A stretch of DNA of 54,457 nucleotides, filler included, from Sluysia triapertura (Eukaryota), in NCBI GenBank assembly GCA_046118255.1. It is 4 parts of 4 records of this genome, joined end to end, with 100 filler letters (N's around TTAATTAATTAA, not from the genome) between each part and the next. Parts side by side here need not be neighbours in the genome. Positions count along the whole stretch, not along the records: positions 42,062 to 54,457 come from JBJNIA010099214.1; 3 more parts are not named here. The stretch is one strand, 5' to 3'. The notes under the pieces are model-generated. The model worked only from the letters and a program-made list of their open reading frames with translations. It was not told the origin of the DNA and searched no databases. Both the position numbers and the translations under genes were made by a program. Shown piece by piece: positions 3,949-54,457 of this stretch. How positions within the stretch are numbered: the stretch's first letter is position 1; each line of letters starts with the position of its first letter.

Positions 3949-3950
3949 AA

Positions 3951-5120: not shown

Positions 5121-6309
5121 TTTTAAACGACTATTGATTTCTATAGTCGTCATAACTATGGAGATCTCAGATTTGATCACGATCTAGACAACAGACTTAG
5201 TATATACCAAATGTATATACCAAATTTTAATATTAGTAAAAGTGACCATTTAGTACTACACTAAATGTATGTACCAAAATCATTTAGATACTACTCATCC
5301 ATTCGTATTTATTACAATTATTATCGTAATATTGCTCGTATTCATAATTATAATAACATGAATTCTATCAATCAACATATTTATTATTCTATTCGTTATC
5401 ATTTATTATCAACACTTCCAGCTTTACTCGGCTCGTCAGACAATGTTTGTAAACGTCAAAATTTATCAAATTTTATATGTGTCATTAGTAAGCAATTTTA
5501 TTCTTTTGATTTTTATTCTGAAATTTTTGTCTAAAAGTTGTGTCGTATATAATAAATTAACCAAAACTTATTGTTTTATTTACCAATTTAATTTTGATAA
5601 AGTAAGGGTCTTTAAGACCCATTTTTATATTAAATATTTTAGTAATTTGTTAATTATATTATTAAAAATTAAAAATTTTATTTTCCTAAACGATAAAAAA
5701 GCTTTCATTAATAATCTTTCTTTCAAAATTTATAAACAACCAACAATACAACAATTTCAACATTTTATATTACAGCTATAAATAGACTGTTAATGTCACT
5801 AAATCAATAATTTTTAAACTTTGAAATTATATATTTGTGTAAATGTAGCGATTCACTATTTATAGTGTTTCTAAATAATGTTTTTAGTAGTTTTATAAAT
5901 AAAATAATGTTTAATAATTAAAACAATAATATTTTTTTAAATTAACATATTTTTTAATAATATATTTTTTAAATTTAATAATTTTTAATACATAAATACA
6001 TTAATAATTTTAATATTTAAATTTAATACATCAATAGTTCTAATATTTAAAATACCAAAAATAAAATATCAAAATAAAATATCAAATATACTTGATATAT
6101 TAATACGTAGGTTACAATTTTTTTATTATTTATTTATTATTACTTCAATTTTATTATTATTAATTTTATTTTAATATTGTTATTATTAGTATCATTATTT
6201 ATTATTATAATTATTAGCACATTATTCTCATTCTCATTATCAATTATCGTTGTTATTGGTTGTTATCATCATTAATTCGTCATATTACTTTAGAATGACA
6301 GTTTTGATT

Positions 6310-6430
6310 ATAAATTGCCACCAATGTTATGAAAATTTAATTTACAATTGTCATCAATTGACAGTTTTCGTTTGACACCAGTGTAGTGTTGACCAAGTGC
6401 TTTTCGTCAATTTTGTTGGCCAACCAACGA
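6310..6430 (+). repeat. Diverged copy of the paired inverted-repeat module
   Basis: Follows an ATT tract; shares TTAATTTACAA and TGTCA with the 10022 copy; has the IR GTTGACCAA...TTGGCCAAC; precedes a CCCH remnant. Confidence 0.4.
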
Positions 6431-6618
6431 GATATACAGTTTAGTATAATCTCAATTATTTGTGTACATGAGAACATATATACATACAAGTATATAATGC
6501 GAAATTTAATGTACTGACTCAATAAATAATTATTTTGAATGTAGTAATCAAACAAGCTGACGATTCAATTTATAGAACATCAACTAAGTATGTAAAACAT
6601 AATCACGATTTAGATCAT

Positions 6619-6699
6619 TATAAAACCGCACAATGTATGCACGGTATGTCGAATTTAGGCCTATGTCTTAGATATGGTCAACATTGCTCATAAGCCCAT
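6619..6699 (+). pseudogene. CCCH zinc-finger remnant (Cx9Cx6Cx3H), copy A
   Basis: YKTAQC-MHGMSNLGL-C-LRYGQH-C-S*A-H, with a TIS11-like YKT..C lead-in and one stop. Confidence 0.75.
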
Positions 6700-6819
6700 A
6701 ACGTCTCATTCCTCATAGGACAACAACGATTTCAATGCTAACCTGGATCGTATGTACAATCTTTTATCCTCATTACAAGCAAAATCAAGCACATCAAACT
6801 CTTCGATTAGTGAATGCAT

Positions 6820-8490: not shown

Positions 8491-10021
8491 ATTCCAAGCA
8501 ATTTAACTTTTATTATAATCGTTTAAGAAAATCAAACATTTAATAAAATTATAACTTGATAAATAAAATATCGAAATTCCAAATTATTATTTTAATATTT
8601 TTTATACATACCATACGTGTGTTAAACACTTTATTTAATTTTGAAGTTCATTTTATTTAAATTTTGAATACTTTGTTATATTTTTAATATTTTTTTTCAA
8701 CGTTTCTTTTAGTTAGGTTTATCAATTTTTTGTATTACGCTTTATGAGAAATTTGAGCTACTTATTACAATAAATAGATTAAATTTGATAGTATTATCAA
8801 TAATACTTGACAAAATTTCAAGCTTATCGTTTATTGTAAGTATAGTTTTTGTAGCAGTTGTTATTATTGCTGGTTCTATATAAATTTTATGCATGTTAAA
8901 AATATTACTAAAAATAATATAAAAATTAATTACAAATTAAAAAGAAATCAATATTTACGATGTTTCTCATAGTCATGGTTAATTGTAGTTAACCATGACT
9001 TTAAATCACGTAATGTTTATATCGTTGTTATTTATTGCCTAATGTATATAATATATAATACGCCGGCCGAAAATTTGATATGCAACAATTGCAATGAACC
9101 ATCCAAACCTGACAATGTCACTACCGTCTCTAATTGTACGAGCTGTAGCAAGCGAATCATTGAATCTGTTCTGATGTAAAACGTTTTCGCATATCATCAC
9201 ATGGAGAGTATCCCATTGTCCGTCCTTCAGGGATTCTGGAAGATTTAAAACTGTCGAATGTGGCTACATTTCTGACTGAGGATTATTTTCTAAATCGTAA
9301 CTCCAGTGTTGAAAGCGTTTTTATATGTCTTTCTTCTATTTTATCTTTTTTTAATAAAAAAGGTTTTATTTTGTTGGTGTTAAAATATTATTCTTTAAAG
9401 GCCCTAAGCCTAGTTTGTTAATTCATAAATTTAATAGTTTTTAAATGTTTTTAAAATTAAACGTTAATTGTTGCTTTTTAATTAAATGTTTCATATTTCA
9501 CATTCAAAATATAAAACTAAATATTCATAAATATAATTCAGTAACATTTTTCAAGTAAAAGCGCCCCACATTCAGCTTGAAACATTATTTCATTCAGAAC
9601 ATTGAGGTATATTCTAACATCTACATAAAGCATTCATATTCTTTCAAAATATTTAACACCTAAAATTATTTTCACTTGAAATGAGCAGACAACATTAAAA
9701 TTTACACCGAAACGCCTTACGCATTATCCTACAACATCAGCGTCACTATTACACTTTGAAGTCTTATCCAGGACACTTAACATTAGGCTGAAGTATCATT
9801 AAGATTGGTAAATATATAAGAAAAATTAAAGATATAAGAAAAGATTGTGTTTCCTCTTTACTTTTAACTTTTAATGTTTAGAAATTAAAGAATAGAAAGA
9901 AAATTCATGTTTAATTTAGAGAACAAATAATTTATGTAATTTAATGATAATAATAATATTATATTATTATTATCATTACCATTTTTTAGTTTTATTTCTA
10001 ATTAAATTAATAAATTATTCA

Positions 10022-10188
10022 GTAACTACCACTACCAGTGGGCACTGCATTAATTTACAAAGATAGTCAATGTCACCACTGATAGTGGTTCACATATCAA
10101 TCATCCAGCTTTTGATCTTTATTATTGGTCGTCCAACCAGATTTAGTCTCATTACTATTTTTATATTCCTCTGGTTGGACGGCCAATC
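10022..10188 (+). repeat. Paired inverted-repeat module (IR-A + IR-B)
   Basis: ACCACTACCAGTGG (10028-41) / CCACTGATAGTGGT (10076-89); ATTGGTCGTCCAACCAGA (10124-41) / TCTGGTTGGACGGCCAAT (10170-87), 28-nt spacer. Homologous to 36977-37142 and 47108-47422. Confidence 0.9.
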
Positions 10189-10281
10189 AGGTTGATAATT
10201 GTAATAAAATTATAATTATTTTAAAATTTTTTATTATTATTGCAAAAGGAGAATAACATTAGAAATAGCTATTTTACATCA

Positions 10282-10810
10282 ATGGATATTTCTATGTCTT
10301 CATAGAGTACTGGTTATGATTTTTCTGAAAGTCATGATTTCCATTTAAAATCATTATTAAACCATTATTCCATTCAAGATGATAATTACAAATTTAATGA
10401 TAATAAAGGTTACGACTGCAAAGTTGAAGATTATAAACATGATGATTATAAAGAGTATAATGGCATATCTAACAATTCTAAACTTAATGATTACAAAGTT
10501 GATGATTATAATTGCAAAACTAACGAATATAAAGATGATAATTATCAAACTAACAATGATGAAGATGATGATAGCGAAGTTAACAATAATAAAGATAATG
10601 CTTACGAACTAAATGTTTATAAAATTAATGATTACAAACTTAGCGATGATAAAAATAATCATTACGAATTTAACGATTATAAAAATGCTAATTTATCTGC
10701 AACTAGACAAATGTGATTTCCATTTGTATATTCTCTACCGACAACAATGGATATGCCTAATGCACGGAATATACTGCCGCTACGCACATTCCGTTTACGA
10801 ATTAGAATTT
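10282..10810 (+). pseudogene. Decayed ORF: N/D/Y/K-rich repeats followed by CCCH remnant (copy B)
   Basis: ATG at 10282 with an early stop. The frame from 10378 to ~10715 is open and repeats NDYK-like units. C-LMHGIY-C-RYA-H-SVYEL starts at 10754. Confidence 0.6.
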
Positions 10811-11599
10811 AACAAAGAAAGCGAAACAAATTAAAATCACCTTAAACACAGAATTGTATAATTACTCGAGAGTATTGGAGTTACCTCGTCCAATTCGACT
10901 GGCAATAGTTATAATGATCAATAACCATAAAGTAAACAATTTTTACATTCACATTCTTAGTATTATGAATTCTTATTTTTTAGATGCTGAAACAGATAAA
11001 AGAAAAGTCATACATAGGAGCCAAAATTTTAAATTAAAAATCATAACGAATACATTTTTATGCAATTTTCGTCGTCTTTTCATTATTCAAAAGTTAATTG
11101 TACAATTTAATTTTCAAAATTCAAAATAAATACTTCTAATCTTGTTTAATAATATTATTAGTAAATGTAAAACAAAATACAAATTAAATTTTAATTTTGA
11201 TATAAAAATAAATAAACATTATAAGTCACACATGCATAAGTCTTTTTAATAACGATGATCGCGATTCAGACGATCCAAATACAAATGACAATACGAACCT
11301 TTGAGGTAAATCTCTTTATTTTGAAATTTTTATTTAATCACCATAGGATTATCATTCAACGCATAGTTTATGGCTTACTAAAACATAAGTCAATTATCAT
11401 TTTTATCCTATAAATTAATGTACAATAATGTGTTGATCAATCTTGTTTATGTCATAATAAATAAACATATTAGATTTCACTTTGCGAATTTTTATTCTAA
11501 CCAAACAGTAGAGAGAATAAATAAAGTTGATAAATTATTAAATTTATTAACAAATTAATCGATAATATAATATTTAATAATGTAACATTTTGTAATCTC

Positions 11600-21000: not shown

Positions 21001-22204
21001 TGTTAATGATAATAGCTTTTCCAAAAATGTTTCGATAGTAATAATCAATCCTTTATAGGTTCTTGTTTATCTGCTTTTAACTTTTCTTTTGTACGGCATC
21101 AGTTTCTACCATTGACGTTATTTCTTCAATTTCTTTGAGGATTCCATTTAAAATTTTAAAAAAGAAATATCTAAATAAACTCACAGAAAGAGCTTAAAAA
21201 TACAAAATTTAAAAGTGCCTCAGATTTGAGACGAAAAAAAATTGTAAGAATTTGAAATAGAACTCATACTTAATTAGCGATAATAATCTATGAATAAATC
21301 TGAGAACAAAAAAAGATGTAATGTTAATAAAATAGAAATAAAAAAAATGAAAATTAACAAAATGTTTACAAATAAATAAATTACATAGCTCGAGCGATAT
21401 TACTGAACAAAATTAATTGTTTTATTAACACCAAAAATGAGTTTTTACAAGTTTTCTAGCAAAAAAATATATATTCTACAGTTATGTTAATTGGTGAGTA
21501 AAATTGAAACGTATAATTACTTTAATGTCAAATAATAAAATAATAATTAATAATGGCGTGGCAACCTACAAAATTAATGAACGGCTTAACACCTTTTTTC
21601 ATTTTAATATAAAAATGCGACTTGTACAGTAAAGTAAGTAGTCATAGTTCCAAGCCAGATAACAATATAATGTTACAGTTATTAATTCGTAATAAGATCT
21701 CAATAAGACAAGATTACTCGTTGAAACTGACATAATTTTCCTTTTTGTTATCAATTGGCGATTTGTGTAAACCGCCACACAAATAATTGCTTGTGATACA
21801 GTCGGATTGTTGACAAATAATCATATATTTAACCGATTTATTCGTAAGTTTTATTAACATAAATTTTTTCCTTAAATAAATTAAGAAACTAAATCATGCG
21901 AAAATTATATTTTTGAAGCTAATTTATATCTAATTTATATCTAGTAAAATCTAGTTTAAAATTTACACGATATATATTGGATTAGTGTTTTTGTTTACTG
22001 AAAAAGATAACTAGAAGTAAACAATTAAAGCACATTGATAATTATTAGAGTTGCATTAATTTAAAGTAGATTTCACGATATTTTGAGAATTCGAGATCAT
22101 TTAAGTTACAAATTATTTATTCAACAATCTCGATTCATTCTTTCATGGGAATAATAAAAAAAGATATTAAAATTCAAAACGGAGTAATGAAAAAAAAATA
22201 AAAC

Positions 22205-22914
22205 CTTTCATTAATTTCATTAGAAGTTGCTTTTATACCATATTGGCATTTTGTTTGATGATCCCGTACAATGATCACAAAACTGCTGTCTTCAGGACAA
22301 ACAGATAAATGCATCAAATTTATGGGCACTAAATGATATTTGTCTTCTTTTCTTTCATAACAATACAACAAACAACTTAAAGTCAATACACAATATAATC
22401 GAAATTTTTGTTGATTTTGATTGGTTTTCACGTAATTTGATTTGGAATCTGTTGAACTGGTCTCATAGATTATTGTATCTAATTTAGTAAAATCCATATA
22501 ATCTTGAATATAACCGAATTTTCTGGATATTTTACGAAATTTTTGTATCTGTTTATCAAAAAATTCTGAATTCGAGTCAAACAAGCCTGATATATTCTGT
22601 TGACATAATAAATGATAGCATTCTTCACAAACCGGTCGATATTCATCACAATATTCCAAATATACATTATATCTATTGCTTATGCAATCTGTGCAATACA
22701 AAAGACCGTCTGAACAACAATGTACACGTTTATCGAATGATTCAAAACGTTTCTGACATGAAAATCCATTACAAAAACTTGTATCGGATACTTTCTGCCA
22801 TTTAGGAGCTTCTAGACCAAGCAACTTCATAGTTTCTAATTCTTGGTAATTGATTTTACTGTTTAAATTAACTATTTGTTCAAAGACATCATTTTCTTGG
22901 CAACTTTGGTTATG
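22205..22914 (-). CDS. Internal exon encoding FYVE plus a C-terminal PH domain; FGD-family RhoGEF-like
   Basis: Open 236-codon exon between a tttcag acceptor and an AG|gtttt donor. LG..APKW, C...C..F....R.HC..xG..YC..C, RPVC..CY, then PH-like CVLT..CLLYCY...ED. The FYVE-then-PH order is typical of FGD proteins. Confidence 0.7.
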
Positions 22915-23791
22915 CTGAAATTATTAATTATTATTTTTAATAATATTTCATCCATAAATTTGTAAAAAGTTAAAAAATATCGGCACTAATTCATTGATTT
23001 CTAGAGTAAACATATTTTAAAAATATTTTGTGTACTATAAATATAGTTTAAAATGATTTTAAAATAAAAGTACATAATATTATGTTCCACTTTACATCTA
23101 AAACGCACAAATACTCACGTTACAACTAAAAAATGGTTAAAAACTCACAAAATATCTTTATAAACCAAAATTAGGAGCCAGAAATCAATAGGCAAATGTG
23201 AAAGAAGAAAACAAGAATCTACACATTTAATTAGCATCTACACAATTTTACAAATCGAACGTTGACGTCACTAAAACATGAAAAGTCCACTTAAAGTGAA
23301 TACCAACAGTCACAAACAAATACTAACTAGCAAAGCGGATATAAATGAAGTACATATTGAGGAAAATAATATATCACCAAAACGAAATTATATAGTTTAA
23401 TTTACAAATACATGAATAAAATTTGCTATGCAGCCATAATACGAACTATTATAAAATTTAATTGGTCAGAAAGAGAAAAATTGAATAAATGGATGTTGAC
23501 TATAGAGAGAATCTTATACGGTGAAAATTGAATAATTAATGGTATATTTATTTTTCATATTCGCATCTTATTGATCTTATTATGAGTTCAGAGATTTAAT
23601 CTCTTTAAATGACTCAATTAAGGTCTAACAATTTAATTCTGTTCTACAAATTAATTTCACATAATGGTCCGTTCTTTGATTCGTTTATTAATTAACTTTA
23701 CCTTAGTACAGAATGTTTAAATTTATCATTTTTAATTTCCTCTTTTAGCTATCGATGAATTTATTAAGTACTTAACAATGTCGAATTTGTC

Positions 23792-27057: not shown

Positions 27058-27689
27058 ATGGTTATTAGCATTATTTGAATATTATTATGTTTATGATTTA
27101 TGAGATTTATGTTGTGCTTATGACTTGTTTGATGGAGTATTTAGTAAATAATTGTTATAAATTGTTTGGAATGAATGTAGTGGTTTATTGAGTTGGAATT
27201 GTTTGAGATATAGTTTGTTTTGTTTTTGAATATAAGTTGATGAAATGTTATAATTGTTGGAAAAATGTATTTTAATGAGATTTGGTTTGCAGCTGTTGTA
27301 TGTAAATTTTGCGTTATAAATGTTGACCACTACAGTACAAACGTTCCAAACAATACAATCATTAATCTAACAAATTTTAATCTATGTATTTTTCATGATT
27401 AAAATATTTTGTAATAAATTTATGTTTGTATCATGATGTTCTTAAAAAAAGAAACTAATCACGATTTATTAAAATTAAATTTATTTAATTTGATAAATAG
27501 TTTAAAGATAAATTTTAATTCAACTCTCATCAATTTTGATAAACTTAATGAAAATGTGAATCAAATAAAAACAACTATATTTCATTTACTTCCAAGCTTA
27601 TAACATGTGCTATAATATGCTATAATTCGTTTTCTCAAAAAATGAAACTATTAATCATAAAAAATAAGTATAATTTACAAATTTTTTAG

Positions 27690-28184
27690 TCTTCTAAAAG
27701 CGAGCAAGTGCAACCAGTAAATCAAAGTGAAAATACACCAAAAGGTGATGATCAATCTACTGCAAATACAAATAGAATATTTGAAGATGAATCAATTCGT
27801 CAACATTTAGATTTTATTGTTGAACTAGGATTTTCTAGAGAAGTTGCACAACAAGCATTAGAAATGAATGATTATGATCCTACTCAAGCTGTAACTTCTT
27901 TGTTTAATTCTGATACTCCAACAGGCCACTTGTTTGGTGAAGGTATTCTTAATTCAGGTACTGTACCTGTTGTTACACCTTTGATTTCGAGAACTGGTAC
28001 AACACAAAATAAAAACGATACAAATGATAATCCGAATATTTCCGAATATTTTAAAGTAATGATAAATGAAAAAAAAGAGCAAGAGGTAGATGAAATTGAG
28101 AAGGATAATGAAATTATAAAACAAGAGATGCGAAAGAATTTTCTTATCAATTTATTTAGTTTACATAAAGATAAAGGTGTAGGG
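27690..28184 (+). CDS. HUWE1: HUWE1 exon (UBA domain)
   Basis: tttttag acceptor, gttagt donor, 165 codons, phase 0/0; LDFIVELGFSREVAQQALEMNDYDPTQAVTSLF is a UBA domain. Confidence 0.75.
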
Positions 28185-28227
28185 GTTAGTTTATTAATAT
28201 ATTGATTTATTCAATTTCTTTTTACTA

Positions 28228-30000: not shown

Positions 30001-31616
30001 GTATGTTATTTATTTTCAATCATAGATATAAAATTCAAAAATTTAATGTAGATGAATGAGATGCATAAATTTAAGTCTCAAACTATAAAATATACTTTAG
30101 AACGAAGTTTAAATTAATAAGTCAAGCAGTGAAATAAATGAAGTAAAAGTAATATTCAAAGCTCAAAAAATCATTTAAACATTATTTAGTTATTATCACT
30201 AATAACATATTTTACTATCGTAGACAGTTTTTATCATGTTTTGAGATACAATTATGTCTGCATAATTGCATAATTATTCTTTATATTAATTATAGCTTAC
30301 GTTTATATTTTGTTTTAATCCCGAAGCATAACTACATAAGTTATATCAAATGTGATTATTATATCAGTTATTTATGTAAGGAATGTAACATTTTTCGATG
30401 GAATTTTAAACAATCAACTTGAGCCACGTACACTTTAATTTCATCTAAAATTGTTCTTTTACCTAAGTCACTTGCTGGATATTAAATATTTCATAATTTT
30501 TTAGCACCAATCAAATTTTGAGATTTTGTCTTAAAATAGACAGGTTTACTAAAATAATGAAAATATATCAAAACTCGTTGGATATTGTTATAATAATCAT
30601 ATAACAAGATAATTTTCCAAATTTTTCAGTATTTTAAGAACATCCTGTTTTGGATTATGAAAAATTAAATTATAAATGCACTTCAACTTGAAATTAATAA
30701 AATAAATATTTTGTTGAAAATTGTTGATCATTTTTCAAAACCACAAATAATGAAGTTTATTGCAATCAGGAGATAATAATTTGTTATTGCACTATATTCG
30801 ATATTAGAAACTTATTTTTACAAAATATCATGGACATGCTACGCATATCCTAAACAATACAATTTTTCTTGAAAGAAACATCATTATCCATAAAATTTTC
30901 ATTAATATTCTTTCTGTATTTAAATATTGAAGTTTATGGGATTTAATCAAATGATTTCCGATTCTTATTAAAAGTTAATTATGCTTATGCTTATGATTAT
31001 ATGGTATCATAAAACAGTATACGCATATAAGTTTTCATTTCGAACACATTAAATCACATTCAATATCTACCATCATATAACACCTAAATCACTTACTAAA
31101 TCCTATACTATTCTATAAAACATTCAATATAACTTACAAAATGTGTCGTCATCGTTATCATTATCAGTGCCATATTATTGCATAATTTGTTCACTTCCGT
31201 AGCTTGAGAAGAAAATCTTGTACCGCAGTCAATAGAAATTTTTCTTATGAAATAACTTTAAATGGCATTGGTTTTTTTAACTGCGAAAAAGTACTGCAAC
31301 ACCTTATCGAAAACTGATAAGGTAGACACGCCACACATTTTCAAAGCCTACTACTGATAAATGTATTTTATGTATTTACTACATATAAACCTTATTCATC
31401 AACATTATTTTTAAATTGATAAAATTTATTTTCCTTTTATTGCATGGTAAAGTCTACGTGCAAAATTGGAACTCATCGGTCACAAGTGATGAATTTACTT
31501 TCAGATCACCAAATGGACGTTATTTTAAGTTGAATAACGAAAATAGTCCTTGTAACATGGTTAAAGTTTATATGAACATATCAATTAAAAAGCGTTTCAA
31601 CTATTGTTATTTTTTT

Positions 31617-32866: not shown

Positions 32867-33127
32867 GCTCTGCGTCTTCGAAGAGATGTGATATTAGAAT
32901 ATCGAGGTAGCAATACGTGGTTTTGGTTAGATGAACATCGCGGTAGTTGGAATTCTTGTAGTTTATCAGTTATAAATCGTAACTATCGAGACGGACATTT
33001 TAAGTCAACTTTCAGGCTAGGTGGTCACCAGTATTCAGTAAATTTTATGACAATGATTAAGAAAAATGAAAATAGTTCCATAGAACATCCCGTGATGTTG
33101 TTGCCGTCATCATATCAACAACGAGAA
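32867..33127 (+). CDS. HUWE1: HUWE1 exon (WWE domain)
   Basis: WFWLDEHRGSW...FRLGGHQYSVNFMTMIKKNENSSIEHPVML matches the HUWE1 WWE (WRWFDDRSGRW...F.AG.R.Y.V.F.TM.Q.NE.....RPVML); 87 codons, phase 0/0. Confidence 0.85.
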
Positions 33128-34558
33128 GTTCGTTCATTAATGCTTTTCTTAAAAAAATTCAGCTAAATTAAAAAAGCGATATTTTTAATGTGCTTTTTGC
33201 TTAATCACATTTGAAGAATAATGTAATTTTGTAAATTTCTTAATTAATTTTTATTTTGATTAAAATTCAAATACAATTATCTAGTTAACGTCTTTGAACA
33301 TTACAATTGTTTTTAAAAATTTTTCTATTAAATAATTGTTAAAAATTAAAAATTAATTAACAAGATGTATTGATTTTTAAATTATTTTGTTTCGGCCAAG
33401 CCTAACTAATAAGGCGAAGGTTTTGGAGTTGATCGATTTTACTATTATAATATTATTGATTATCATTATTAAAATTGTTTGACATTGTTATTTTATTAAT
33501 TTTTTAATTATTACAAAATTATTATATTGTTATTTTGCATTATTGAGTCGTTATTACAGTCGCACTATTAACAAATGCATTTTACAATGGACATTATTTA
33601 AATAATTTTTATATTAGAGAATTTCAAAAATCATGTCAAATTAAAGTGACAAAAAATTTTTAATTTTCTAAAAAATTAGTTCATATATTTTACGGAAATA
33701 ATTTATACATTTAAACATATAAAATTCAAATGATGCAATAATTTGCTAGAAAATGTAATGAATTTTAACTTTTGCAACGCTATTTCCTATCACAATTTTG
33801 TTTATACCTATTTGGACCAAAAAGTGTTTATTTAGATTTAGGATGAACTGAAAAAAAGTCAAAAAATGAATTGAGAAAAAAATAATTAAACTTAGAAAAT
33901 AATTTCAAATTAAATGTTAAAAGAAACCGATTCATCGGACGAAGAAGAAACATAACTTACAGTGAAGGGAAAAAAATACATGATTGGAAAAGTTTTGAGT
34001 TTTTATTTCCTGGAAAAATAGCTGTCCGAGTTTAACTAAAACATCATTGTTAACTAAATAAAAAAAGAAGTAAAATTTATTCTTAAAATTGTAACAATTT
34101 ATTTATGCTAATATTTTTTTAATGAATTATTTTTTTACCTTATTTTAAATTTTAATGATTTATTCATATTAGCTAGTAAGTCAAACTGACTCAATAATTA
34201 AATTTTCTCAATCTCACCAATTTAATGAAATCATTTATGTTAAGGTCAAGTCAATGAATCATGATTATGAAATCGCATTTTCATATTATGATACTACATT
34301 GTAGCTTATACTTCAATTTAGTATTTATTTAATCATTATATTTTTTTATTAAAAAGTATCTACACTTTATCTTTAATAAACCTTTAACTATAAAACCTGT
34401 TTTCTTCAAGTACTACTCGAAAACTGAAGTATAGTGGAAATTGAAATATTCAATGATTTCGAATATATTAATAGGTTCGATAAATTTAATGTCACAAAAA
34501 TCTACTGATACAATGTTTATTTAAATAATATGTTCATTTGATATTTCTATTATTTCAG

Positions 34559-42061: not shown

Positions 42062-42716
42062 TACTTCTACTTCTACTATTACGACTACCACTACTGCTGT
42101 AAGCATGAAATTCACAACATCGGCATTTTATCGAGGGATTTGACTGTCTGAATCTTGTTCCGATCTCTGTCAATGATTATTTACATCCAAATTGTACAGT
42201 GTGCTGGATAGGTTGAACTTGAGATATTCATTACACACTTTTAGTGGTAAAAATTTTTTTGTTATAGTTTTTCCAGGATTTATCTTTCTGATGTGAATAT
42301 GTGCCTGTCAGGTCTGTATAGAGCCATTCAATTTGTCCTTAAAGACAAAGATGATTTTAAATTTTATATTTCCTCATACCATTGTGACTCTAGTTAATTT
42401 AACAAGCTTTCCCTCGTCAATTTCAGATAATTCACTCTAGACCTAGTTCTAAACATCTGGACGGCATCAGCTTGTTACTATGTGTATGTATTATTTTCAC
42501 ATAAATCAACTCAAAAATCATATCTAATAAGTGCCCTAAGTGCAACTTAATTTACTGTTCGAGTGAGAAATGTGTTAATTTCAAAGTAAATATTAAATAA
42601 ATTATGCGAAAAGATTATTGAAGTAGTGCTGATAAAATATTAATGTGGTATTATCACTACTACTATTATTATTATTACTACTATTTAAAAATAAGTAACA
42701 TATTCACTGTGTGCAG

Positions 42717-43025
42717 GTATGTTTGTGGGTGCACTATGTGCAGTAACTGGGGTACTAACTATTTCGCTTCCTGTTCCGGTAATTGTGTCGAATTTTTCTA
42801 TGTTTTATTCGCACACGCAAGCTCGCAGCAAGTTGCCTAAGAAACGAAGGCGAGTGTTACCAGTTGAAGCCGTGCGTCCCAAATTAAAGTTGGCGGCTGC
42901 AGCAACAGCCAATCACAGTCGACTTGTTATTAGTCACAGTCCTCAGAGATTGTCCAATCATCAAACGGCCTTGGGTGTTACAGAAAGGCTTTTGTCCAAT
43001 TACAAGAGTCCTGCTATCATAACTG
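42717..43025 (+). CDS. Shaw: Shaw/Kv3 voltage-gated K+ channel exon (S6 and proximal C-terminus)
   Basis: [51 protein letters not shown]. tgcag acceptor; either a G|gttaga donor after 43025 or read-through to the TAG ending at 43030. Confidence 0.92.
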
Positions 43026-44165
43026 GTTAGATTTATTCATCAAATAATTAACCAATACTTTTTATTTCACGTTTCTATTTCAAGGTAGAATATTATTCGA
43101 TATTCGATTAATATTCGATTTATTGGTATTTCGACTACTGAACCATCCACCTAATTATTCTGACAGCAGATTTGAACAACATAATTTAATTAATTAAGAG
43201 CGAATGTACAATCGAAAAGAGATATTATTTCTGTAATTGCTTCAACAAAATATCCATTAATATTCTTTTGCACTTGAATTTCCATCTGTAAGATACATAA
43301 TATGATTTGTATTAATACATAATCCAATTAGATTTAGTACATTATCCTACCATATCGGCCATATTTCCTGAATATCCCTGGGTCTGCGGAGCCTTCTCTT
43401 TGATACATTTAATTTATTTAATACATTTATTTATTTGTAATTTATTTAAGAGTATTACGGAGTGATTGGGTGTGCTGGAGACGTAATGAATTCCGAATTT
43501 GATATTTATTTAATCAAAAAGCGTAACATTGACGTATGATTTGACAATGATTTTCATATTAAAGAAAATCCTGTCATAATTTATGCTGACGATTTTATGA
43601 GGAAATAATGCATTACAAAATGTTATTTTGAAGTCAGACATGTGCTTATTGGAAAATGTAAAGGAACCTACAATATTAAGTTAGTCAAATCAGTCATTTT
43701 TAGAAGATTTAGAACTTGACAAGTCATATCTATTTATTAATTATAGATTACATGGATGAATGTCATTAAAATATAATCCAGTTGATTAGCCATGAATTAG
43801 ATATCGTCTAACATCATTGAGCGAAAAGTCGTGCGTATATACGAGTGGTATTATTGGGGGATAATTGTTTGTGATACCACTTCGCTCTAAATTGATTATA
43901 TTTATTTAATTTTTGGGGACATTACAATTTTGGTTGAGTCCATTTTCATAATTGCGTAGTTTTTATGTTATTAGTGTTCAATAGTTAATTATTTATTTAC
44001 AATTATTTTAACATTTATTTGGGGTATTTAATGTTTATTCGCGATAATTGATTATCTGTTTTATTGTAAAACAGAGAATGTAATTGAAGGTAGATCTTAT
44101 TTTGATTCTCTGAGTTCTGAATTTAAAATTATTCGAAAGTTAAATCAAACTATTTATAAAATGCG

Positions 44166-44280: not shown

Positions 44281-45617
44281 ACTTTCATATCTTTTTGATC
44301 TTATTATTACTTAAACTTACCCTGATCAAAGAATGAGTTATGTTATGAGTTCGCTTACGATTCTAGTCTTACAAGAAGTGGCTTGGTATGATTTTAAAAG
44401 AATCTATTTCTTTCATGCAAGTTCCAAGGTTATTTTGAGGAATGCATTGAAAATTAAAGAATGGTTCCGCCTTAGGCGAGTTTAATAAAATTTAACTTAC
44501 ATAATAATAGGATTGTTTTCCGCTTTATAGCGAGATTATTAATAAAAAGTTAAACTGAACCGTTGAAAAGCTTCATTTTATAGTTCGGTATTATGCACGA
44601 AATGTTTAGAATGTTTTTAATGTGTTGAAGCCGTGTAATTTAGATTTTGATAGTACTTTCGATTCAAATCAAAGGGATCGATAAAATGTAAATCACAAAT
44701 TTAAGACAAAAAATTATATTATGATAACCTAACAGAAATTTAAGACAACGTAACTTATTTAGAAGCAATAATTAAAAAAATTTAATAAATTAAATGTGCA
44801 GTTTACTGAATTATTATTATTAATTTTAATCGGATTTTGAAAGATGAATGGAAACAAATACAAAACTAACGCGTACCGAAGTAAAAATGATCTCTGTAGA
44901 AATAGCCGATGAAAAAGTCTTTTGTTTTTTCTTCGGATATATCGATATTAGAATCTCTTTTATTAATTTACTTCTAGACAATTGCTTTCTAACTTTAAGA
45001 AAACAACTCAGAAATTTTATACTTACCAATAGTTGATTTTCTGTGGCTGTTGATACTCCTTCTTCAAAATTTATTTTATGACTAATAAAAAGAACATTAA
45101 AATTTGTCTAAAATATCAATAAGAATTTTCTTTTAACCTATTAATGTTTTTATTTTTGAATAATTTATAAATAATTTAAAATAATTTATTTTATGATATT
45201 TTATTAATGTGATTATGAGTTGATTGCTTTTAGAAGATTTTATTTGATTTTAAAACTTGGTAGTGTAAAATTACTTTTTATTAAATGTAAGCAAAATGAT
45301 AAAATGGGAAGTTTGCAGACAGTAAATGAGAATCTGTAGATAAAATAATATTTTATTTATTAAATCGAATTTAAAAAATTCAATGTTTATAAAGTTCGGT
45401 TTGTATATATTGTTTTCTGACAGCCACGTTTCACTATCTGAAAAAGAATCAAAAGTCAAGTATCTTTAATGTAATCGTAAAAAATATTTACCCTATTATT
45501 ACCATTAGTACTGTTGTTATCAAGCATTTCCGGAGTTGGTACACCGATGCTTACGAATAAATCTGAGAGTCTAACGAGATGATCCGTTCGGAAAGCACAG
45601 TTGACTTTATAGTCCAG

Positions 45618-45712
45618 CAATTGATTAACAGTGTGTACATGCACGCATTTAGTTCCGAAGTTTGTACATTCGCATCTTAGTAAACTGTATAAGGACAAAG
45701 TACTGGTTTATT
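45618..45712 (-). pseudogene. CCCH remnant (copy D) downstream of the primase fragment
   Basis: KPVLCPY..(1-nt loss)..EC-TNFGTK-C-VHV-H-TVNQL; first Cys to His spans 65 nt vs 66 nt in copy C. Confidence 0.7.
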
Positions 45713-46319
45713 TGCGACGAACTGAATTAACAGTAACCGATCAAACGGGCATTAAATTCTTGAACATATTATTTGCGTTTTGTTCATTAGGGGAATCGGT
45801 ATAATGATATACTGAGCACTTCTCCAAGCCATTTTTATCTTTATTGTCCTTGTTTAACTCAGATGAGTTAATTGGTGGGGCTTTATTTGGCATTCACTTT
45901 ACTCTTAAATTCATTGTCAGAATCTCAAAAAGTTTAATCTTTTCTATATTCAAGACACAATTTTATTTAGCTATTGCAGCGGCTGCAAAAACTCTCTTAT
46001 ATAGTTTAGAGTAATCATGAATATACTAGTAACTATTGGAGGGAACTTCAAATTTTGATTTAGATCACTCATATTAATACGACTCATTATATCTCTTCTT
46101 ATTCGAAAACTCAGCATCTTTTGAATCATCTCAAATTTATCTTTACTATTTTCAATTAATTCTGTACGAGTTCGCATCATGAATTCATAAAGGGCATCTT
46201 CTTTTAAATTTTCGGGTAATCTTTTAACTTCTAAAGTTGAATGACATTGAGAAAATATTCCAATAGAGTTGTTAAAGCTTAATCTAGTTTTGTTACTGAC
46301 ACTGGTGATGAGAATGAAT

Positions 46320-47007
46320 TAGGTAAAATATCCAAAATATATTTGATTCTTCCAGGATTTTCTAGCATTTTTTAAAAGCAAATCTTTTAAAATTATTTGT
46401 AAATATCGCTATACTAGCTCTTAACATCTTTCCATTTATTATTTATTTTAATTCTATTTTGCCTTGTTTATAACGACTTATAAAACCAACCAGATTACTA
46501 CACTAATTGACATAATAACTTTACCACATCATCAAAAGCCTCTTCTTCCAGAAAACACCCACCAAATATGTTTGAAATCAAAGTCTTCAGTTAGAATACG
46601 ATGCAGTTATTCCTGCAGTTATCAAAGTCTAACTATTTTTTTTACAAACATCTGCCTTTGAGCAACAATTTCGAAAATCATCATAATCTTTTATGTGAAT
46701 AGCAAACACTAAATCTTTAGAAACCGGCTGAAGTAAATAAGACAAATGATTTATTGGTATTGGGAGGCATGATAAAAATGATACCAATGTCAATTTTATA
46801 CGGATTCTTTTTAATCAACTCGGTTTTTAATTCATTTGCATTACGAAACGACAAATAACATACATAAATATTATCCTTCAATGTAAAACTAAATTCTCGT
46901 TTAGCAAAATTCTCCTCATTATTTTTAGATAACCATTTAAAAAATAATTGATATGGAAATACATTAACATAAATATTTCTTAAATTTGCTTTAAATTCTA
47001 ATGTCAT
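46320..47007 (-). pseudogene. PRIM1: DNA primase small (catalytic) subunit, intronless decayed copy of the N-terminal part
   Basis: FPYQLFFKWL...FAKREFSFTLKDNIY.Y.SF....LK.E...KNPYKIDIG, then across stops and frameshifts KDLVF.I..DYDDFRNCCSKADVC and L.EDF.FKH.WWVFSGRRG. Confidence 0.92.
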
Positions 47008-47107
47008 ATATATATATATATATATATTGTCTTTAAAAACATTTTTGGTTTCTAAATATGCTATTAATAAAAATGAATTTAATAGGTTAATTACTATTCT
47101 GACTGTC

Positions 47108-47422
47108 CAGATTGGTTGTTCAACCAGAGTGATGCAAATAATGAAAAGAGCTACTCTGGTTGGTCAACCATTAATACACTGAAAAATGTCTCACATGGAG
47201 AAGCCAACCATTATCTATTATGACAAGAATTTATACATGAAATGATTAAGTGTGTAATGAACTGTCATCAGTCGACAGTTAGTAAAAGAACACCTTATTG
47301 ATTTCGACTGATGGTAGGTTAACAGCAATTAAATTTTTGTGCGCTATAAATACAGCTACCATCAGTGGTGACAATAATTGTAATTGTGAATTAATGGTGT
47401 CTCCACTGGTAGTGGTAGTTAC
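47108..47422 (-). repeat. Paired inverted-repeat module with an extra IR pair
   Basis: TGGTTGTTCAACCAGAGT (47113-30) / ACTCTGGTTGGTCAACCA (47153-70); CATCAGTCGA (47266-75) / TCGACTGATG (47304-13), 28-nt spacer; CCATCAGTGGTGACA / TGTCTCCACTGGTAG (~47359-47412). Lies ~100 bp upstream of the primase ATG. Confidence 0.9.
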
Positions 47423-49042
47423 AAAGTTGGTCGATAGAAATTCTTTAAATAAAAATAATAAAAATAAAAATAATAATAATAATAATAATATTATTATTGA
47501 AAATTTAATTCGCTTAAATCTTTTGATTTGTCTTATTAATAACACGATCTTCCTTAATATGTATATTTCTTTTTCTTAACATATTTATAATATCTTTGTT
47601 TGCTGTAATGTTAGTTCTTTTTCCATTACTATGTCTTAAATTGATTTTATAATGTAACTTTAATATTTTTCGATGATCTATATGATTGAATGTTGAAAAA
47701 TTATGAACTTGAAATGTTTTGGATTAGTTTGGTGTATGTGTATTAATGATTTTGGATGTTAGTATGGTATTGATATAAGATTGTGAACTTAAAATGTATT
47801 GAAAAGAGAGTGGTTTAGTGAATGTAAAGAAGATAAATTATAGTCTAGATTTTGGTACATTCTAAAAATTATGCGATATTGAAAAATATGATTTTGATTA
47901 TGTTGAAATGGAACTATGTATAAAAATGTTTTTAATGCGTTTTAAAAATATACATTGTAGACTTTGAAAGTGAATATGGTTTTGTTGTATTCAAAAGAAA
48001 ATTTTTTAATAAAATTTGTTAAAAGTAATAGGTTAAATGATAAATATATGAAATTAAATTAAATTTTAATCTAAGAAGATTTACGCAATATGAAAAGGGC
48101 AGTTGAGTAACAATCCAGATTATAAATTTAAAGAATGCATGGAATGAAACTGGTACTAAGGCAGTGAGTGAATATTTATAGTAATGTTTGAGGTAACAAA
48201 ATTGTTAAAAATAATAAATTGTTAAATCGAAGAAATGTTTCTTTTCAATAATTCAAACAAAACCACGTAAATTTAAATATCGTTCAAACGTACAGGAGCC
48301 GTATACAGCGATGTTAGTTTTAAAATAAGTAATGTTTATAGTGCAAAAATTGACTGGAACATCGGTCTTTAAACATCGGTCAAATTTTGCCTAAGTGGCC
48401 AACGCTGATATTTCAGCTCTAGGTCAGAACAATGATTAGAAATTATTTTATTAGAAAATGATTTAAAATTATTTTGTAAATAAAATCTTTATGTAAATAA
48501 AATAAACTATTCAACATATTAATTTTGTGAAATAAAATATTAATAAAATAAAATAATAAATTTAAAATTAAATATTGAATTTAATATATTAAAAAATTGT
48601 AATAAATTTAAATTTAAATTTTAAGTATGAATAAATTTAATAAATTAGAAAAGTTTTGTTTTATCGGATCAATTTTTGCCTTATGGCTTTATATTGAAAA
48701 ATTAATATTATTTTTTATATTAACTGAGTATTGCCTATTTCACAAGTGAACAATAAGTTTTAACTTAAAATTAATCACATACGCAATTACACCCACATTA
48801 CAAATTTGTAATGATTATTGAACGCTATTTAACCGAATAAGTAGTAATACCTTCTACTAGTTATAAAAAATCCTAATAATACGTCCTACAGAAATAAATG
48901 TAAATCATGCTTATTAGGCAGACTGACTCTCGGATTATTTTGTAAGTATAAAATTATGTTGAGATTAAGCTTTAATAAAGAAAAACACTTGCAATAATTT
49001 AGAAATTTTGCTATAATATTTTAAATTATTTTAATTAATTAG

Positions 49043-49701
49043 GTAGTTCTAGTATTTGGAGGCTGGACAGATGGCGAAGGTCCTCGGGCAGCTGCCCAAG
49101 TATACGATCCACGAGCTGATAATTGGACGTTATGGACTGAATTTTCTACAGATATTAATTTACTTGGTGAAATACCAAGACGTGTTTATGCCGGTTGTGT
49201 GTTGGTTAATAAACGAGTTTATTTGATTGGTGGATTTGATGGAACAAATGCACTAAAATCAACGTTATGTTATGACTTCGATATTGATTCTGGTTGGTAT
49301 GAAATCAGTTGTATGTATGAAAAACGATACTACGTAAGTGTAGCATATTACAATAAATTCATTTATGCACTTGGTGGACATAATGGTGAAAATCAGGGTC
49401 GCTTAGATACAGCAGAAAGATTTAATTTAGAACAAAATTTATGGCATCCAATTGCATCTATGCGTCGTGTACGTTCTGATGCTTCAGCTGCTGAATTGCG
49501 AGGTAAAATTTACATTTGTGGTGGTTTTGAAGGTCGTCATTATCATGATTCAGCGGAATACTATGATCCTGATATCAATCAATGGACACTAGTAAATCGT
49601 ATGTCGTCACCTAGAGGAGGCGTGAGCTTGGTTCGACATGATAACTATATATACGCAATAGGGGGAAACGATGGACATAGTCGATTAAGATCTATTGAGC
49701 G
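49043..49701 (+). CDS. Kelch-repeat exon, KLHL10-like
   Basis: aattag acceptor, CG|gttagt donor; VLVFGGW...YDPRADNW then GG-type kelch repeats; MYEKRYYVSV and RSDASA motifs resemble KLHL10. Confidence 0.88.
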
Positions 49702-51734
49702 GTTAGTTTTTATATTGTTGAAAAATCTCAGATAAGTTAGAATTATTTTGTTACTCTTTTTGTGAAGTAACAGTTCGAGTAGTCAGAGTAGTGTATAGTG
49801 GTGTTAAAATGTAGAAAATTTTAGTGCATTCGCAGTCTTCAACATAACTTAATTCATGTTGGTAATTTAATTTATCATAGTCTGAAGTGTAATACAAGTT
49901 CATTAAGTCTTTACGTGTCATTCAGATTTTAAATCAGTTTTAAATTGATACCAAATTAATCACACACTTTCAATTATTAATTAAAACAAATTATTTTTTT
50001 CTATTAGTGAATAAATAATAAATAAATACTGTATATCTTTTGAAATTTTGAGATTGTCGTTTATTATGAACTTCTTCAACATAAATCTTATAATTTTAAA
50101 ATGACAAAAGAAAATATTAATTAATTGAATTCTTCATTATCATCTTTATAAGTCAGAATTTGCTACAATGGATAGCAAAATAGGCAATTGTATACAGCAA
50201 AACAATCCAATAAATTATTATTGTAAAATCTTGGGAGTAAAGGAATGTTGACATTAGAACTTTATTTAAATTTTGTTTATGAATTTGAACGTTGATATAA
50301 TTTTTATGGAATATTTTATATGAATTATTATTGAATTATATGGATTATATTTATTTTTATGAGATTTATAAAATTACTTTATGGAATATTTAAAGGTATG
50401 ATTTTTATTATAAATTCTTAGTATAATTTTAAATTTTATTACACAGTGAATTAACGTGATTAATAGAAAATTGAATTAAATTATTTTTAAATTAAAATCT
50501 TAAAAATTAAATTCGTTTAAAATGCAACCAAGGTCAATCAAATCAAATAACACAATTTTGTTCACCAACTCGCAATAAATGTACACATTAATACACATAT
50601 TTTGACAATTGCAAATTTATTATCAGCTCCCTCTCTTTAATAGTTGTTACAAGTCTCTTGGAGCCAATTCGATTTTCTATTGTTTGACAAATTAATTTTT
50701 TTTGATTTAAATATTTTATTTTATTTTGATTTAAAGGATGACGTTAGTTTAATTATTTTAAGATTTGATATATCTATATCGCACGTAAAATCTATTAATC
50801 TATTAAAATCTTTTAAATCATTTTAGGATCCAACGAAAAATATTTCAATAAAATCCTTTATATTATTCATTAACTCAAAGAATTAATTATTGTAATTCTT
50901 ATTACTAGCCATTTGTACACTTCTAAGCAAACGTTTCTAAATAAATCATTCATAGTTAATTTTTGTTTACAATTTACATAGTTTTACATAAAATTTATCG
51001 CTTCGAAAAGATTTCCCAAAGTTAGAATTTAAATCTAACAAAGCAAAATAAATTTATAGATTACATTTCAAGGAATCAAGGAAAAATCACCCAATTAACA
51101 TTATTATTACTTTTGATAAAATAATTCAATTAATATTTCTGACTTACCTCCAGACAGTTAAAAGTATAAATTAGGCATTTTTTGAGCATCATTTGAGACT
51201 TTTTGATTTACAAAATCCAACAGCTGGCCCTACCGGTAAGCCCAGTACGTTGGTGAACTCACATAAAACTATCTCTTTATTCTATTATTTTACTTTAAAT
51301 TACTCACTTTTACACAGGTACATCAAAATTTATTTAGGCAATAATAACAATAATTTAATATGATTGTAGAAAATATAATAATGAAAAAAATAGTAAACCA
51401 AGTTTGCTTGCGGTTTTCCACATTTCAATAGCTTCAAATTTTATAAAGCAATAAGGATGTCCATTATATTTATCTAAACCTTGGTCATAATTGATAAATT
51501 CTGATGCATGTCTATAGCTATTACCAATCCATTTATATTTTTCTTTGAAAATTTTATTATGTTCTTTGCAAATGTATTATTATATTTATCATTTTTATAC
51601 CACTAGAATCCACTGTTATTATTACTATAACAAGAATAGAACATAAGTATAATAAAAATAAATTTCCACATAAATCCTTGTTTGTAAAACAATTTATTGA
51701 TTTTTTCATAATTTTTATTTTTATAATTTCAGAT

Positions 51735-53057
51735 GATATCGTGGCAACAGCGGTTGGGGTAATAACTAAATAAATACTTTCAGGATGAGAAAATTGTTAG
51801 GTTGCCATCACAACCCTACGAAATAATTTTAAGATGTCATAATGACACCTTAAAATTATTTAATACTATTTAAAATTACAAAAAATCATTCAAAACTATA
51901 GAAAATGTTTAAAATGATTTATTAATCCTTAAAATTATTTTAAAAAAGTATTTTCCAAAAAAAGAAAATTAGCTTCTATAAATAGCAGAGAAGCTTCTAG
52001 AATGTTCTAGAATATTTTAGAACATTCCATCGATTTTCATTGGATGCTGATTAGTATATAAACTTGCATCAGTACAATGAAAATCGCCATTTTTATAATC
52101 TTTATTAGTCAGTCGCTAAAAAATGAAAAATTTATCACGTGACGCAGTTATTGGCATTCGTAAAAAAGCAGTTCGAAATAAATCAACAGTAAACGCCATT
52201 CAAATCTACACTGGTTAAATATTCAAAGGATATTGAAAAAATTATTCATTCGGGTTTTTTGATCAGTTACAATCCATGCTAAAAGTAATTTGTTTATGTT
52301 AGGATTGGTATTAGTTTTTCTTAAGGAAAGTAATATCACAAAATACACTTAAAATCATATTCTGTTAATCTTAAGGTTCCCGATATATTGAGGGGTAAAA
52401 TCCAGTGTAAATTAATAACCAGTTTTTATTAAAGACTCAAAAGAGTTTTAATATTAAAATTCGCAATTAATTTTTAACTCTTGATTCTTTTATATCTTGT
52501 CTATAATTTAGTTGTTCATTTTTTATTTAATTGTTTTTGAAATAAAAATTTTTATTAGTCGATTGTGAATTTAATTAAATTAAATAGACCCTCTAATTAT
52601 AAGATTATAATTTTAAGTTACTGTAGTTATTTTAACTTATATTGTTACAGAAGTGCCTTCTTTACAACGTAAGAAGCTTACCGTAACCGGACCCTGCTCA
52701 ATTTTCTATTTTTCCTTAGGTTTAGACTTAAGTATCAATAAAAACCACAGCAAAATCTAGGATCAAATTCCATGATTCTACACCCTTCATCCGATATTTT
52801 TCTGAAAATTTCAAGTACGCGTTCAGCACTAGTTGTTTATTTTCAACTTCATGTTCATCACTTTTAAAAGTAACAAAATAATCTAATCCATTTTTCTTAT
52901 ATTTTGGCTGAACAGAACCACATCCAATTCTAACGCTTATAAGTTGATTTTGTCCATCTCAATCTTTATTTCCTTCCGTAACGGGAGTTGGAGCACAACT
53001 GTTTTTCTTTTTATATAATTCATAAATTAATTCCAACCGTTTTCCTGGCAGAATATT
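51735..53057 (-). pseudogene. RPB1: RNA polymerase II largest-subunit fragment (clamp region), split by a solo LTR
   Basis: KRLELIYELYKKKNSC...GCGSVQPKYKK(fs)GLDYFVTFK...(fs)SAERVLEIFRKISDEGCRIMEFDPRF. Removing 51795-52752 and one AAAT restores an in-frame DPRFSHPES, followed by an LP.P-like segment. Confidence 0.8.
51795..52752 (+). mobile_element. HSE-containing solo LTR, copy 3 (958 bp)
   Basis: TGTTAGG...AAAACCACAGCA with AAAT duplicated (51791-94, 52753-56); HSE at ~51990-52029, ATTGG, TATATAAA at ~52055. Confidence 0.9.
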
Positions 53058-54014: not shown

Positions 54015-54457
54015 TTTCTCTTCATTATCGTATATACGCGAATATGTACACAAAAGCTTGCTGCTGGTATGTAAGAACAATGAATAGACGGTTCTTGATT
54101 TTAACTTGGACGTATTCTCCACTATTGAAGTTGTTTGATGATTTTCAGTATTGAATGTGAATCTGATGCTAGTTGATTTTATGTTTAGAATGTTTGGAAA
54201 TGTTAAGAATTATGAAATGTTCTGAATGGAGATTTTATTGTGTATTATTGAAATAAATCTTTAACATATTGGGTTGGTCACCACAAACAATAATAGAATT
54301 AAATTTATGATAGGTGTATTATGTACTTTAGTACGTTAATATTAATATTGCGATATTATTACAAGAATTATTAAATGAAAGTACTGCTGGGTTCTTTTTT
54401 AACCTAAAAGCTTCCCTACAGCAAAATAATTAATATTTATGAGTCCGTTTACAGTAT

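What the first reader, a model, noticed from the sequence alone, without database searches (positions are those of the whole stretch)
45450..48035. Best exemplar: IR module, then primase, unknown segment and CCCH in one chimeric unit
Seen on the minus strand: skewed leader, ATT tract, triple IR module, (TA)n, ATG and ~230 codons of intronless PRIM1, then non-primase sequence (TLEVKRLPENLKEDALYEFM, weakly RRM-like), then the finger. I do not see the primase C-terminal YPRLD/KSPF motifs. Inference: either captured cargo or a primase once used by the element itself, which would suggest a self-replicating or virus-like unit with the IRs as origin.
Basis: partly seen in the sequence, partly recalled or inferred. 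Interest (0 to 1): 0.75.

Follow-up and report, generated by a model that had tools for sequence, protein, structure and literature searches.

The report
Dead primase copy beside conserved hairpins
In a parasitic flatworm, a broken copy of the cell's DNA primase gene sits next to a broken zinc-finger gene in a unit repeated at least three times, and the best-kept parts of that unit are small hairpins that likely make microRNAs, so it is likely a decayed gene family with a small-RNA cluster and not a self-copying element.

Summary
The layout is real, but the primase is dead. Strong PRIM1 homology covers about 155 codons (46998-46538). It has two frameshifts and a stop, both catalytic Asp of the DxD are replaced, and 27 of 35 conserved columns are kept (homologue median 97%). 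The 'unknown segment' is probably the eroded PRIM1 C-terminal half (moderate support), not an RRM. The finger is a frameshifted CCCH; its paralogues match the Unkempt type. The host is a neodermatan flatworm.

The unit has two clear paralogues in the window (about 37.2-35.7 kb and 9.9-11.2 kb) and one remnant (6.1-6.7 kb). Three copies share a 52-54 nt GT-AG intron-like stretch, which points to DNA-level duplication. Hairpin arms are 77-85% identical between copies, against 52-54% for loops, finger and intron. G-U pairs fall 11 to 2 on the strand opposite the primase.

Best reading (0.5): a decayed PRIM1/CCCH gene family whose constrained part is a lineage-specific microRNA-like cluster. Cargo of a non-autonomous element: 0.25. 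Element-owned primase or virus-like unit: 0.03. No genome or small-RNA data were available.

The parts
47626..47997 (-). C-rich/G-poor skewed block ('leader'); homologous to the block at 6913-7254; no protein family found
   Evidence: (z 6.4, above all 60 shuffles)
47425..47570 (-). AT-rich stretch with ATT tract, shared by U3, U4, U5 (65% pairwise identity)
47354..47420 (+). Hairpin H1, predicted to fold on the strand opposite the primase; 20 nt of its 3' side are identical in U3
47262..47317 (+). Hairpin H2, found only in this copy; resembles H1 (likely a tandem duplicate); predicted 23-pair stem with 9-nt loop
   Evidence: model R1 does not detect it
47113..47170 (.). Hairpin H3, shared by U3, U4, U5; strand not decided
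47008..47026 (-). (TA)n microsatellite directly before the ATG; not present as such in U3 or U4
46538..47007 (-). PRIM1 pseudogene, 5' part (about 155 codons, no intron): 2 frameshifts, at least 1 stop, DxD replaced, SGRRG kept
45770..46537 (-). The 'unknown segment': likely the eroded middle and C-terminal part of the same PRIM1 copy; 46589-46311 aligns with U4 at DNA level
   Evidence: for; not significant
45630..45715 (-). CCCH zinc-finger remnant split by a frameshift; Unkempt type in paralogues U1 and U4
45438..45491 (-). 54-nt GT-AG intron-like stretch, matched by 54 nt in U4 and 52 nt in U3
45114..45437 (-). Tail shared with U3
   Evidence: 45732-45114 vs 10686-11251, 0 of 200 shuffles reach the score
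35725..37282 (-). Paralogue U4: ATT tract, H1, H3, older PRIM1 remnant, intact-looking CCCH finger, short intron
9874..11251 (+). Paralogue U3: ATT tract, H1, H3, low-complexity 15-bp-repeat ORF (possibly PRIM1-derived at its start), degenerate finger, short intron, tail
6130..6720 (+). Remnant U1: ATT tract, eroded hairpin region, Unkempt-type finger with a stop; no PRIM1

Best explanation
This is a broken PRIM1 copy next to a broken CCCH zinc-finger gene in a unit present at least three times, and its best-kept parts are hairpins that likely form a lineage-specific microRNA cluster, likely read from the strand opposite the primase. Step 1 (inferred): a spliced PRIM1 mRNA was copied into DNA and landed between the hairpin cluster and an intron-containing Unkempt-type CCCH gene. 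Step 2 (paralogy shown, DNA-level route inferred from the shared intron): the block was duplicated several times and dispersed in both orientations. Step 3 (shown): the coding parts decayed. Step 4 (conservation shown, cause inferred): the hairpin arms stayed constrained because they are processed into small RNAs, and one hairpin was tandemly duplicated in this copy. The primase plays no part in replicating the unit.
For: Dead primase: DxD replaced; 27 of 35 columns conserved in 90% or more of 53 homologues are kept, leave-one-out median 0.97 (lowest 0.75, a 5'-truncated protein, then 0.86); GC at codon positions 0.25/0.24/0.22, against 0.52/0.43/0.20 in the KLHL10 exon and the same GC1,2 > GC3 pattern in 4 other host exons. 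Paralogy: colinear DNA matches to U4 and U3. Shared GT-AG stretch in U3, U4, U5. Hairpin constraint: arms 77-85% pairwise identity, loops 54%, finger 52%, intron region 53%, ATT region 65%; invariant columns 27 of 38 and 26 of 36 in arms, 9 of 25 and 9 of 28 in loops; 94% and 93% of stem cells pair. Strand: with a strand-neutral stem definition 11 G-U against 2 A-C oppositions favour the antisense strand (p 0.011, copies not independent); 6 of 7 hairpins have lower energy on it. Size about 60 nt; H1-to-H3 spacing 94-97 nt in U3 and U4, within the 71-101 bp given for flatworm miR-71/2 clusters (PMC4405270, passage). Lineage-specific miRNAs and long hairpins are reported in flatworms (PMC3840308, passages).
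Against: No small-RNA or expression data. Covariation is not significant with 3 sequences (169 and 89 of 500 shuffles reach it). H1 and H3 loops (25-28 nt) are long and lower stems are short. H3 does not settle its strand, and the seed-like conserved 5' ends also fit 3p arms on the primase strand. No Rfam family matches. A GTAA..YAG pair of this size occurs in 279 of 2000 random 150-nt stretches, and U1 lacks it. The PRIM1 origin of the tail is moderate only: 2 of 60 other window stretches scored as high and all single-piece tests failed. Retroposition rests on lack of introns; the host PRIM1 gene structure is unknown and no poly(A) or TSD was found.
Confidence: 0.5

Rival explanations
1. The unit is an old non-autonomous mobile element (Helitron/Helentron-, Pack-TIR- or LTR-type) that captured host gene pieces; the hairpins would be cis signals for a transposase or for packaging, and PRIM1 would be passive cargo.
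For: Copies are dispersed in both orientations. The skewed block recurs before a different intronless-looking gene (tropomyosin) and weakly elsewhere. Five decayed host-gene copies lie co-oriented in the first 11 kb. G-T bias would also suit single-stranded DNA. LTR-mediated multi-gene retrocopies are known in animals (PMC5131818, abstract).
Against: No second copy of H1 or H3 at the far end. No TSD. The blocks up- and downstream of U5 do not align with each other above z 2.5. No transposase, helicase or RT next to U5. An LTR route would not keep the intron.
Confidence: 0.25
2. Everything is neutral: old segmental duplicates of a dead locus, with IRs that persist through arm-to-arm copying or slower decay of GC-richer sequence.
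For: All coding parts decay. Only 4 double-sided changes in 36 pairs, not above the shuffles.
Against: Arms are far better kept between copies than loops or the finger, which copying within one hairpin does not explain. G-U strand bias 11 to 2 in a region with little skew (82 C, 67 G).
Confidence: 0.2
3. One reading: a self-replicating or virus-like unit that used its own primase with the IRs as origin; the unknown segment could then be a tyrosine-recombinase core-binding domain.
For: The PRIM1 remnant is in at least two copies at the same place. The ESM Atlas feature search gave core-binding, QRICH1, ALOG and integrase-SAM clusters at 0.93-0.94 for the unknown ORF.
Against: The Atlas recognition value 2147 is below the 2300 that the tool sets for strong evidence. 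The primase is cellular PRIM1, with no fused helicase. No viral relative beyond a 25-aa match. No polymerase, helicase, integrase or capsid hit. The unit holds an intron-like stretch and an Unkempt-type finger.
Confidence: 0.03

Closest known systems
Chimeric processed pseudogenes / retrogenes inserted into another gene (jingwei-like; recalled)
   Same: Intronless copy of a housekeeping gene beside an intron-containing gene; later duplication and decay.
   Different: Both partners are dead in all window copies, no poly(A) or TSD is left, and the constrained part is non-coding.
Flatworm polycistronic miRNA clusters such as miR-71/miR-2 (PMC4405270 passages, PMC3840308 passages)
   Same: About 60-nt hairpins at 94-97 nt spacing, arms better kept than loops, tandem hairpin duplication, several cluster copies.
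   Different: No Rfam match; my short arm motifs hit no mature miRNA in the parts of four papers that I could search; arms differ by about 20% between copies; tied to a pseudogene; processing untested.
LTR-mediated retrocopies (PMC5131818, abstract)
   Same: Multi-gene chimeras with intronless inserts and repeated flanking DNA.
   Different: No LTR pair or retrotransposon sequence around U5; an intron-like stretch is kept.
Primase-encoding self-synthesising elements and viruses (Polinton-like, AEP-D5 helicase; recalled)
   Same: Only the presence of an archaeo-eukaryotic primase fold and of inverted repeats.
   Different: Cellular PRIM1, catalytically dead; no helicase, polymerase, integrase or capsid; IRs internal.

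Membership tests
Functional PRIM1 / element primase | Catalytic DxD, His after SGRRG, open frame | tested here: not met
   DxD reads AIH, the VHCW motif is missing, 2 frameshifts and a stop
Processed pseudogene | No introns across the copied CDS | tested here: met
   155 codons align to PRIM1 without large insertion; whether the host gene has introns is unknown
Processed pseudogene | Poly(A) tail and TSD | tested here: inconclusive
   No repeat of 8 nt or more between 47000-47100 and 45720-46050; copies are too old for a negative to count
Processed pseudogene | Sister to the host PRIM1 in a tree | tested here: inconclusive
   Quick tree with 80 of 168 proteins: long branch, unresolved; none of 20 looked-up proteins was named as flatworm
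miRNA cluster | About 60-nt hairpins with 16 or more paired positions, clustered | tested here: met
miRNA cluster | Arms more conserved than loop | tested here: met
   77-85% vs 54%
miRNA cluster | Significant covariation | tested here: inconclusive
   3 sequences only; 169 and 89 of 500 shuffles reach the observed value
miRNA cluster | Mature and star reads with 2-nt 3' overhangs | not testable with these tools
   No small-RNA data could be examined
Known miRNA family | Match to a described family | tested here: not met
   Rfam; motif searches in papers, with some supplements not searched
Self-replicating / virus-like element | Terminal IRs plus helicase, polymerase, integrase or capsid genes | tested here: not met
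LTR-mediated retrocopy | Insert flanked by LTR retrotransposon sequence | tested here: not met
   Flanking blocks of U5 do not align with each other; no RT or integrase hit beside U5
Helitron/Helentron or Pack-TIR element (features recalled) | Matching sub-terminal IR at both ends, fixed termini or TSD | tested here: inconclusive
   No second arm at the far end, but ends may have eroded and only one window is available
Penelope/Terminon unit (features recalled; searches found no paper) | Hammerhead ribozyme and Penelope-type RT | tested here: not met
   No hammerhead in the Rfam scan; no RT next to the unit

The most novel reading that the evidence does not exclude
A gene-capturing mobile cassette in a Piwi-less flatworm: a hairpin (microRNA-like) module that spreads through the genome, picks up processed host mRNAs (PRIM1, tropomyosin, SRSF1, cytochrome b5, Unkempt) and is transcribed antisense to them, giving both new microRNAs and silencing RNAs against host genes.
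Probability: 0.1. Interest if true: 0.7.

Novelty: new member of a known kind. Interest (0 to 1): 0.33.

Why it matters
Under the best reading it is a modest find: a candidate lineage-specific microRNA family in a poorly sampled flatworm, found from conservation alone, that travels with a dead PRIM1/Unkempt block. It shows how small-RNA clusters can multiply by local duplication while the neighbouring genes die. Neodermatans lack Piwi proteins (PMC8191739, passages), so an amplified hairpin cassette antisense to captured host genes would bear on how they use small RNAs. The proposed self-replicating primase element is not supported.

Tried and rejected
No whole genome is held, so genome-wide copy number and the host PRIM1 could not be studied. 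Run search: one holder, no RNA holder listed; no reads were laid. RRM reading of the unknown ORF: no RRM in Pfam, no PDB hit (only YibX at E 0.02). Core-binding-domain lead from the Atlas: weak by the tool's own measure; a single-sequence AlphaFold model had pTM 0.28, so no fold search was run. HHalign of 5 single pieces against 51 PRIM1 sequences: all probability 0.5% or less. PRIM1 tree unresolved. Hammerhead ribozyme: none in Rfam. NUMT or LINE origin of the skewed blocks: longest open frame 82 codons, no Pfam hit. Pattern scans gave 4 metagenome and 4 viral loci; all 8 score at chance level (13-19 bits) and share no other homology. Viral relatives of the primase piece: 1 of 17 candidates, a 25-aa match. 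Homologue search with the U1 finger found no candidate. The KLHL10 5' exons were not found in the window, so I cannot say that U5 lies in its intron. PRIM1 origin of the U3 ORF start: 5 of 200 shuffles reach the score, and the U5-U4 5' parts do not align (130 of 200), so this stays open. Three look-ups in earlier findings returned nothing. Paper searches returned no paper; two returned general papers only.
Full report
SETTING. The window is AT-rich, 19-37% GC per kb, with three scaffold gaps. Its longest stop-to-stop frame is 248 aa. The kelch exon at 49043 is 79-81% identical to trematode and cestode KLHL10, 55% to Cichlidogyrus and 53% to Macrostomum, so the host is a neodermatan flatworm; a monogenean is my guess, not a result. 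No genome is held. I call the finding U5.

THE PRIMASE. The first 96 codons match human PRIM1 at E 3e-18; 805 library proteins match at E 0.001 or better, and the best are about 50% identical. All 18 longer hits but one carry the eukaryotic small-subunit domain PF01896. Frameshift-aware alignment gives a strong match from 46996 to 46538, ending at SGRRG, with two frameshifts and at least one stop. I used 53 of the 168 primase hits, those of 365-500 aa with GRRG. Of 35 columns conserved in 90% or more of them, U5 keeps 27. The losses include both Asp of the DxD, the preceding Glu, an Arg and a Trp; real homologues keep a median 97%. The His-Cys-Trp motif after SGRRG is missing. GC is flat across codon positions, unlike five host exons. 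The copy is dead. A quick tree of 80 proteins left U5 on a long unresolved branch, and none of 20 looked-up proteins was a named flatworm, so host origin is inferred, not shown.

THE UNKNOWN SEGMENT. Against a PRIM1 origin: a local profile score after SGRRG is within the shuffles (12.5, maximum 14.9), and HHalign of single pieces is not significant. For it: pairwise z above 2 for 14 of 53 and 11 of 53 homologues in the middle and tail (12 shuffles each). An end-anchored alignment of 46537-45740 to the C-terminal half beats 60 of 60 shuffles and 58 of 60 other window stretches. The length fits a full PRIM1 ending near 45770. In U4 the homologous DNA (185 matches in 301 columns) still reads IHCSVSD where PRIM1 has VHCWVCD, and beats all 120 controls. 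I put the PRIM1 origin at about 70%. The Atlas lead to recombinase core-binding domains is weak by the tool's own measure, and the fold prediction was uninformative.

THE FINGER AND THE FAMILY. Four CCCH-like motifs occur in the window. Those of U1 and U4 hit Pfam zf-CCCH_UNK, and U1's best PDB match is Unkempt (E 0.0017); U4's best is a TTP-like finger. Those of U3 and U5 get no Pfam hit, but they align with U4 by tblastx. U5 is colinear with U4 over the hairpins, the PRIM1 middle and the finger, and with U3 over the hairpins and 600 bp from the finger on. U1 keeps an eroded hairpin region (0 of 200 shuffles). U3, U4 and U5 each have a 52-54 nt GTAA..YAG stretch at the aligned place after the finger. 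Such a pair occurs in 279 of 2000 random stretches, and U1 has none. I read it as an intron, hence DNA-level duplication of a spliced gene. Whether U3 once held PRIM1 is open (5 of 200 shuffles). The skewed block of U5 is homologous to 6913-7254 (z 6.4), which precedes a tRNA-like repeat and a tropomyosin remnant; other skewed blocks match at z 2.6-3.5 only, which composition could give.

THE HAIRPINS. H1 and H3 occur exactly three times in the window at high score, in U3, U4 and U5; these are the sequences the models were built from, and the next independent hits have E 0.07 or worse. H2 is only in U5 and resembles H1. In a scan of 2692 windows of 80 nt, all seven rank among the 19 best by z, but other hairpins score as well. 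Between copies the arms are 77-85% identical, against 54% for loops, 52% for the finger region and 53% for the intron region. 94% and 93% of stem cells pair, but covariation is not significant with three rows. With stems defined by Watson-Crick pairs alone, 11 of 13 transition-type oppositions are G-U on the strand opposite the primase; consensus energies are -24.5 vs -17.1 for H1 and -25.4 vs -24.0 for H3. Twenty bases on the 3' side of H1 are identical in U3 and U5 while the partner arm differs, as a mature arm would behave. Size and spacing fit flatworm clusters (PMC4405270). No Rfam family matches. G-T preference would also fit single-stranded DNA, so RNA is inferred.

MECHANISM AND RIVALS. 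The most economical history is this: a hairpin cluster lay head to head with a CCCH gene, a processed PRIM1 copy entered between them, the block was duplicated, and the coding parts died while the arms were kept (0.5). A non-autonomous element with captured cargo explains dispersal and the cluster of decayed host genes in the first 11 kb, but shows no termini, TSD, LTR pair or enzyme (0.25). Neutral persistence does not explain arm conservation between copies (0.2). A unit replicating with its own primase has no support (0.03).

PAPERS SEEN. PMC3840308: passages, 4 of 5 supplements searched, with the file holding the miRNA structures not searchable. PMC8016320: passages of the mature-miRNA table. 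PMC4405270: passages, 12 of 20 supplements searched. PMC10822868: 5 supplements searched. PMC8191739: passages. PMC5131818: abstract and outline. The unseen supplements could hold a matching miRNA. Searches found no description of this unit; the library lacks most subscription journals. Jingwei, Polinton, Helentron and Terminon features are recalled and come from no call.

VERDICT. Observation partly confirmed; the primase-driven element is not supported. This is a decayed PRIM1/Unkempt-type gene family with a candidate new microRNA cluster. Interest 0.33.

Noticed in passing
window 3945-4125 (+), 4909-5184 (+), 8227-8523 (+): Decayed, intronless-looking copies of cytochrome b5 (E 1.5e-13), an SRSF1-like RRM (E 0.005) and tropomyosin (E 1e-7), all on the same strand as U1 and U3 within 11 kb.
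   Followed up: partly
window 4331-4484 and 7392-7549: Duplicated tRNA-derived stretch on the minus strand with shared flank, 76% identical; each precedes an ATT tract and a decayed gene.
   Followed up: partly
window 7913-8046 and 9015-9177 (+): Weakly similar Cys-rich stretches, possibly a duplicated finger remnant; no Pfam or convincing PDB hit.
   Followed up: partly
window 27060-27400 (-), 54060-54300 (-), 9484-9750 (+), 31033-31240 (+): Further C-rich/G-poor blocks; those at 6819 and 54286 start with a near-identical 15-nt motif; the 54 kb block leads into a 220-aa frame with no Pfam hit.
   Followed up: partly
window 2787-3700 (+), 1040-1270 (+), 11590-11830 (+): Tc3-like transposase remnant, non-LTR RT remnant (RVT_1 E 0.007) and a second RT-like remnant with a YADD motif seen by eye (no Pfam hit).
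   Followed up: no
window 11979-12112 and 51958-52092: 135-nt repeat, 88% identical, with short hairpins; possibly a MITE end.
   Followed up: no
window 51781-51860: Near-perfect 18-bp palindrome with a 3-nt loop followed by a second small hairpin.
   Followed up: no
window 49043-49705 (+): KLHL10 kelch exon; its BTB/BACK exons are not detectable upstream in the window.
   Followed up: partly
window 42695-43030, 22174-22920, 27690-28205, 32867-33166: Host exons: potassium channel, FYVE, UBA-like and WWE domains.
   Followed up: no
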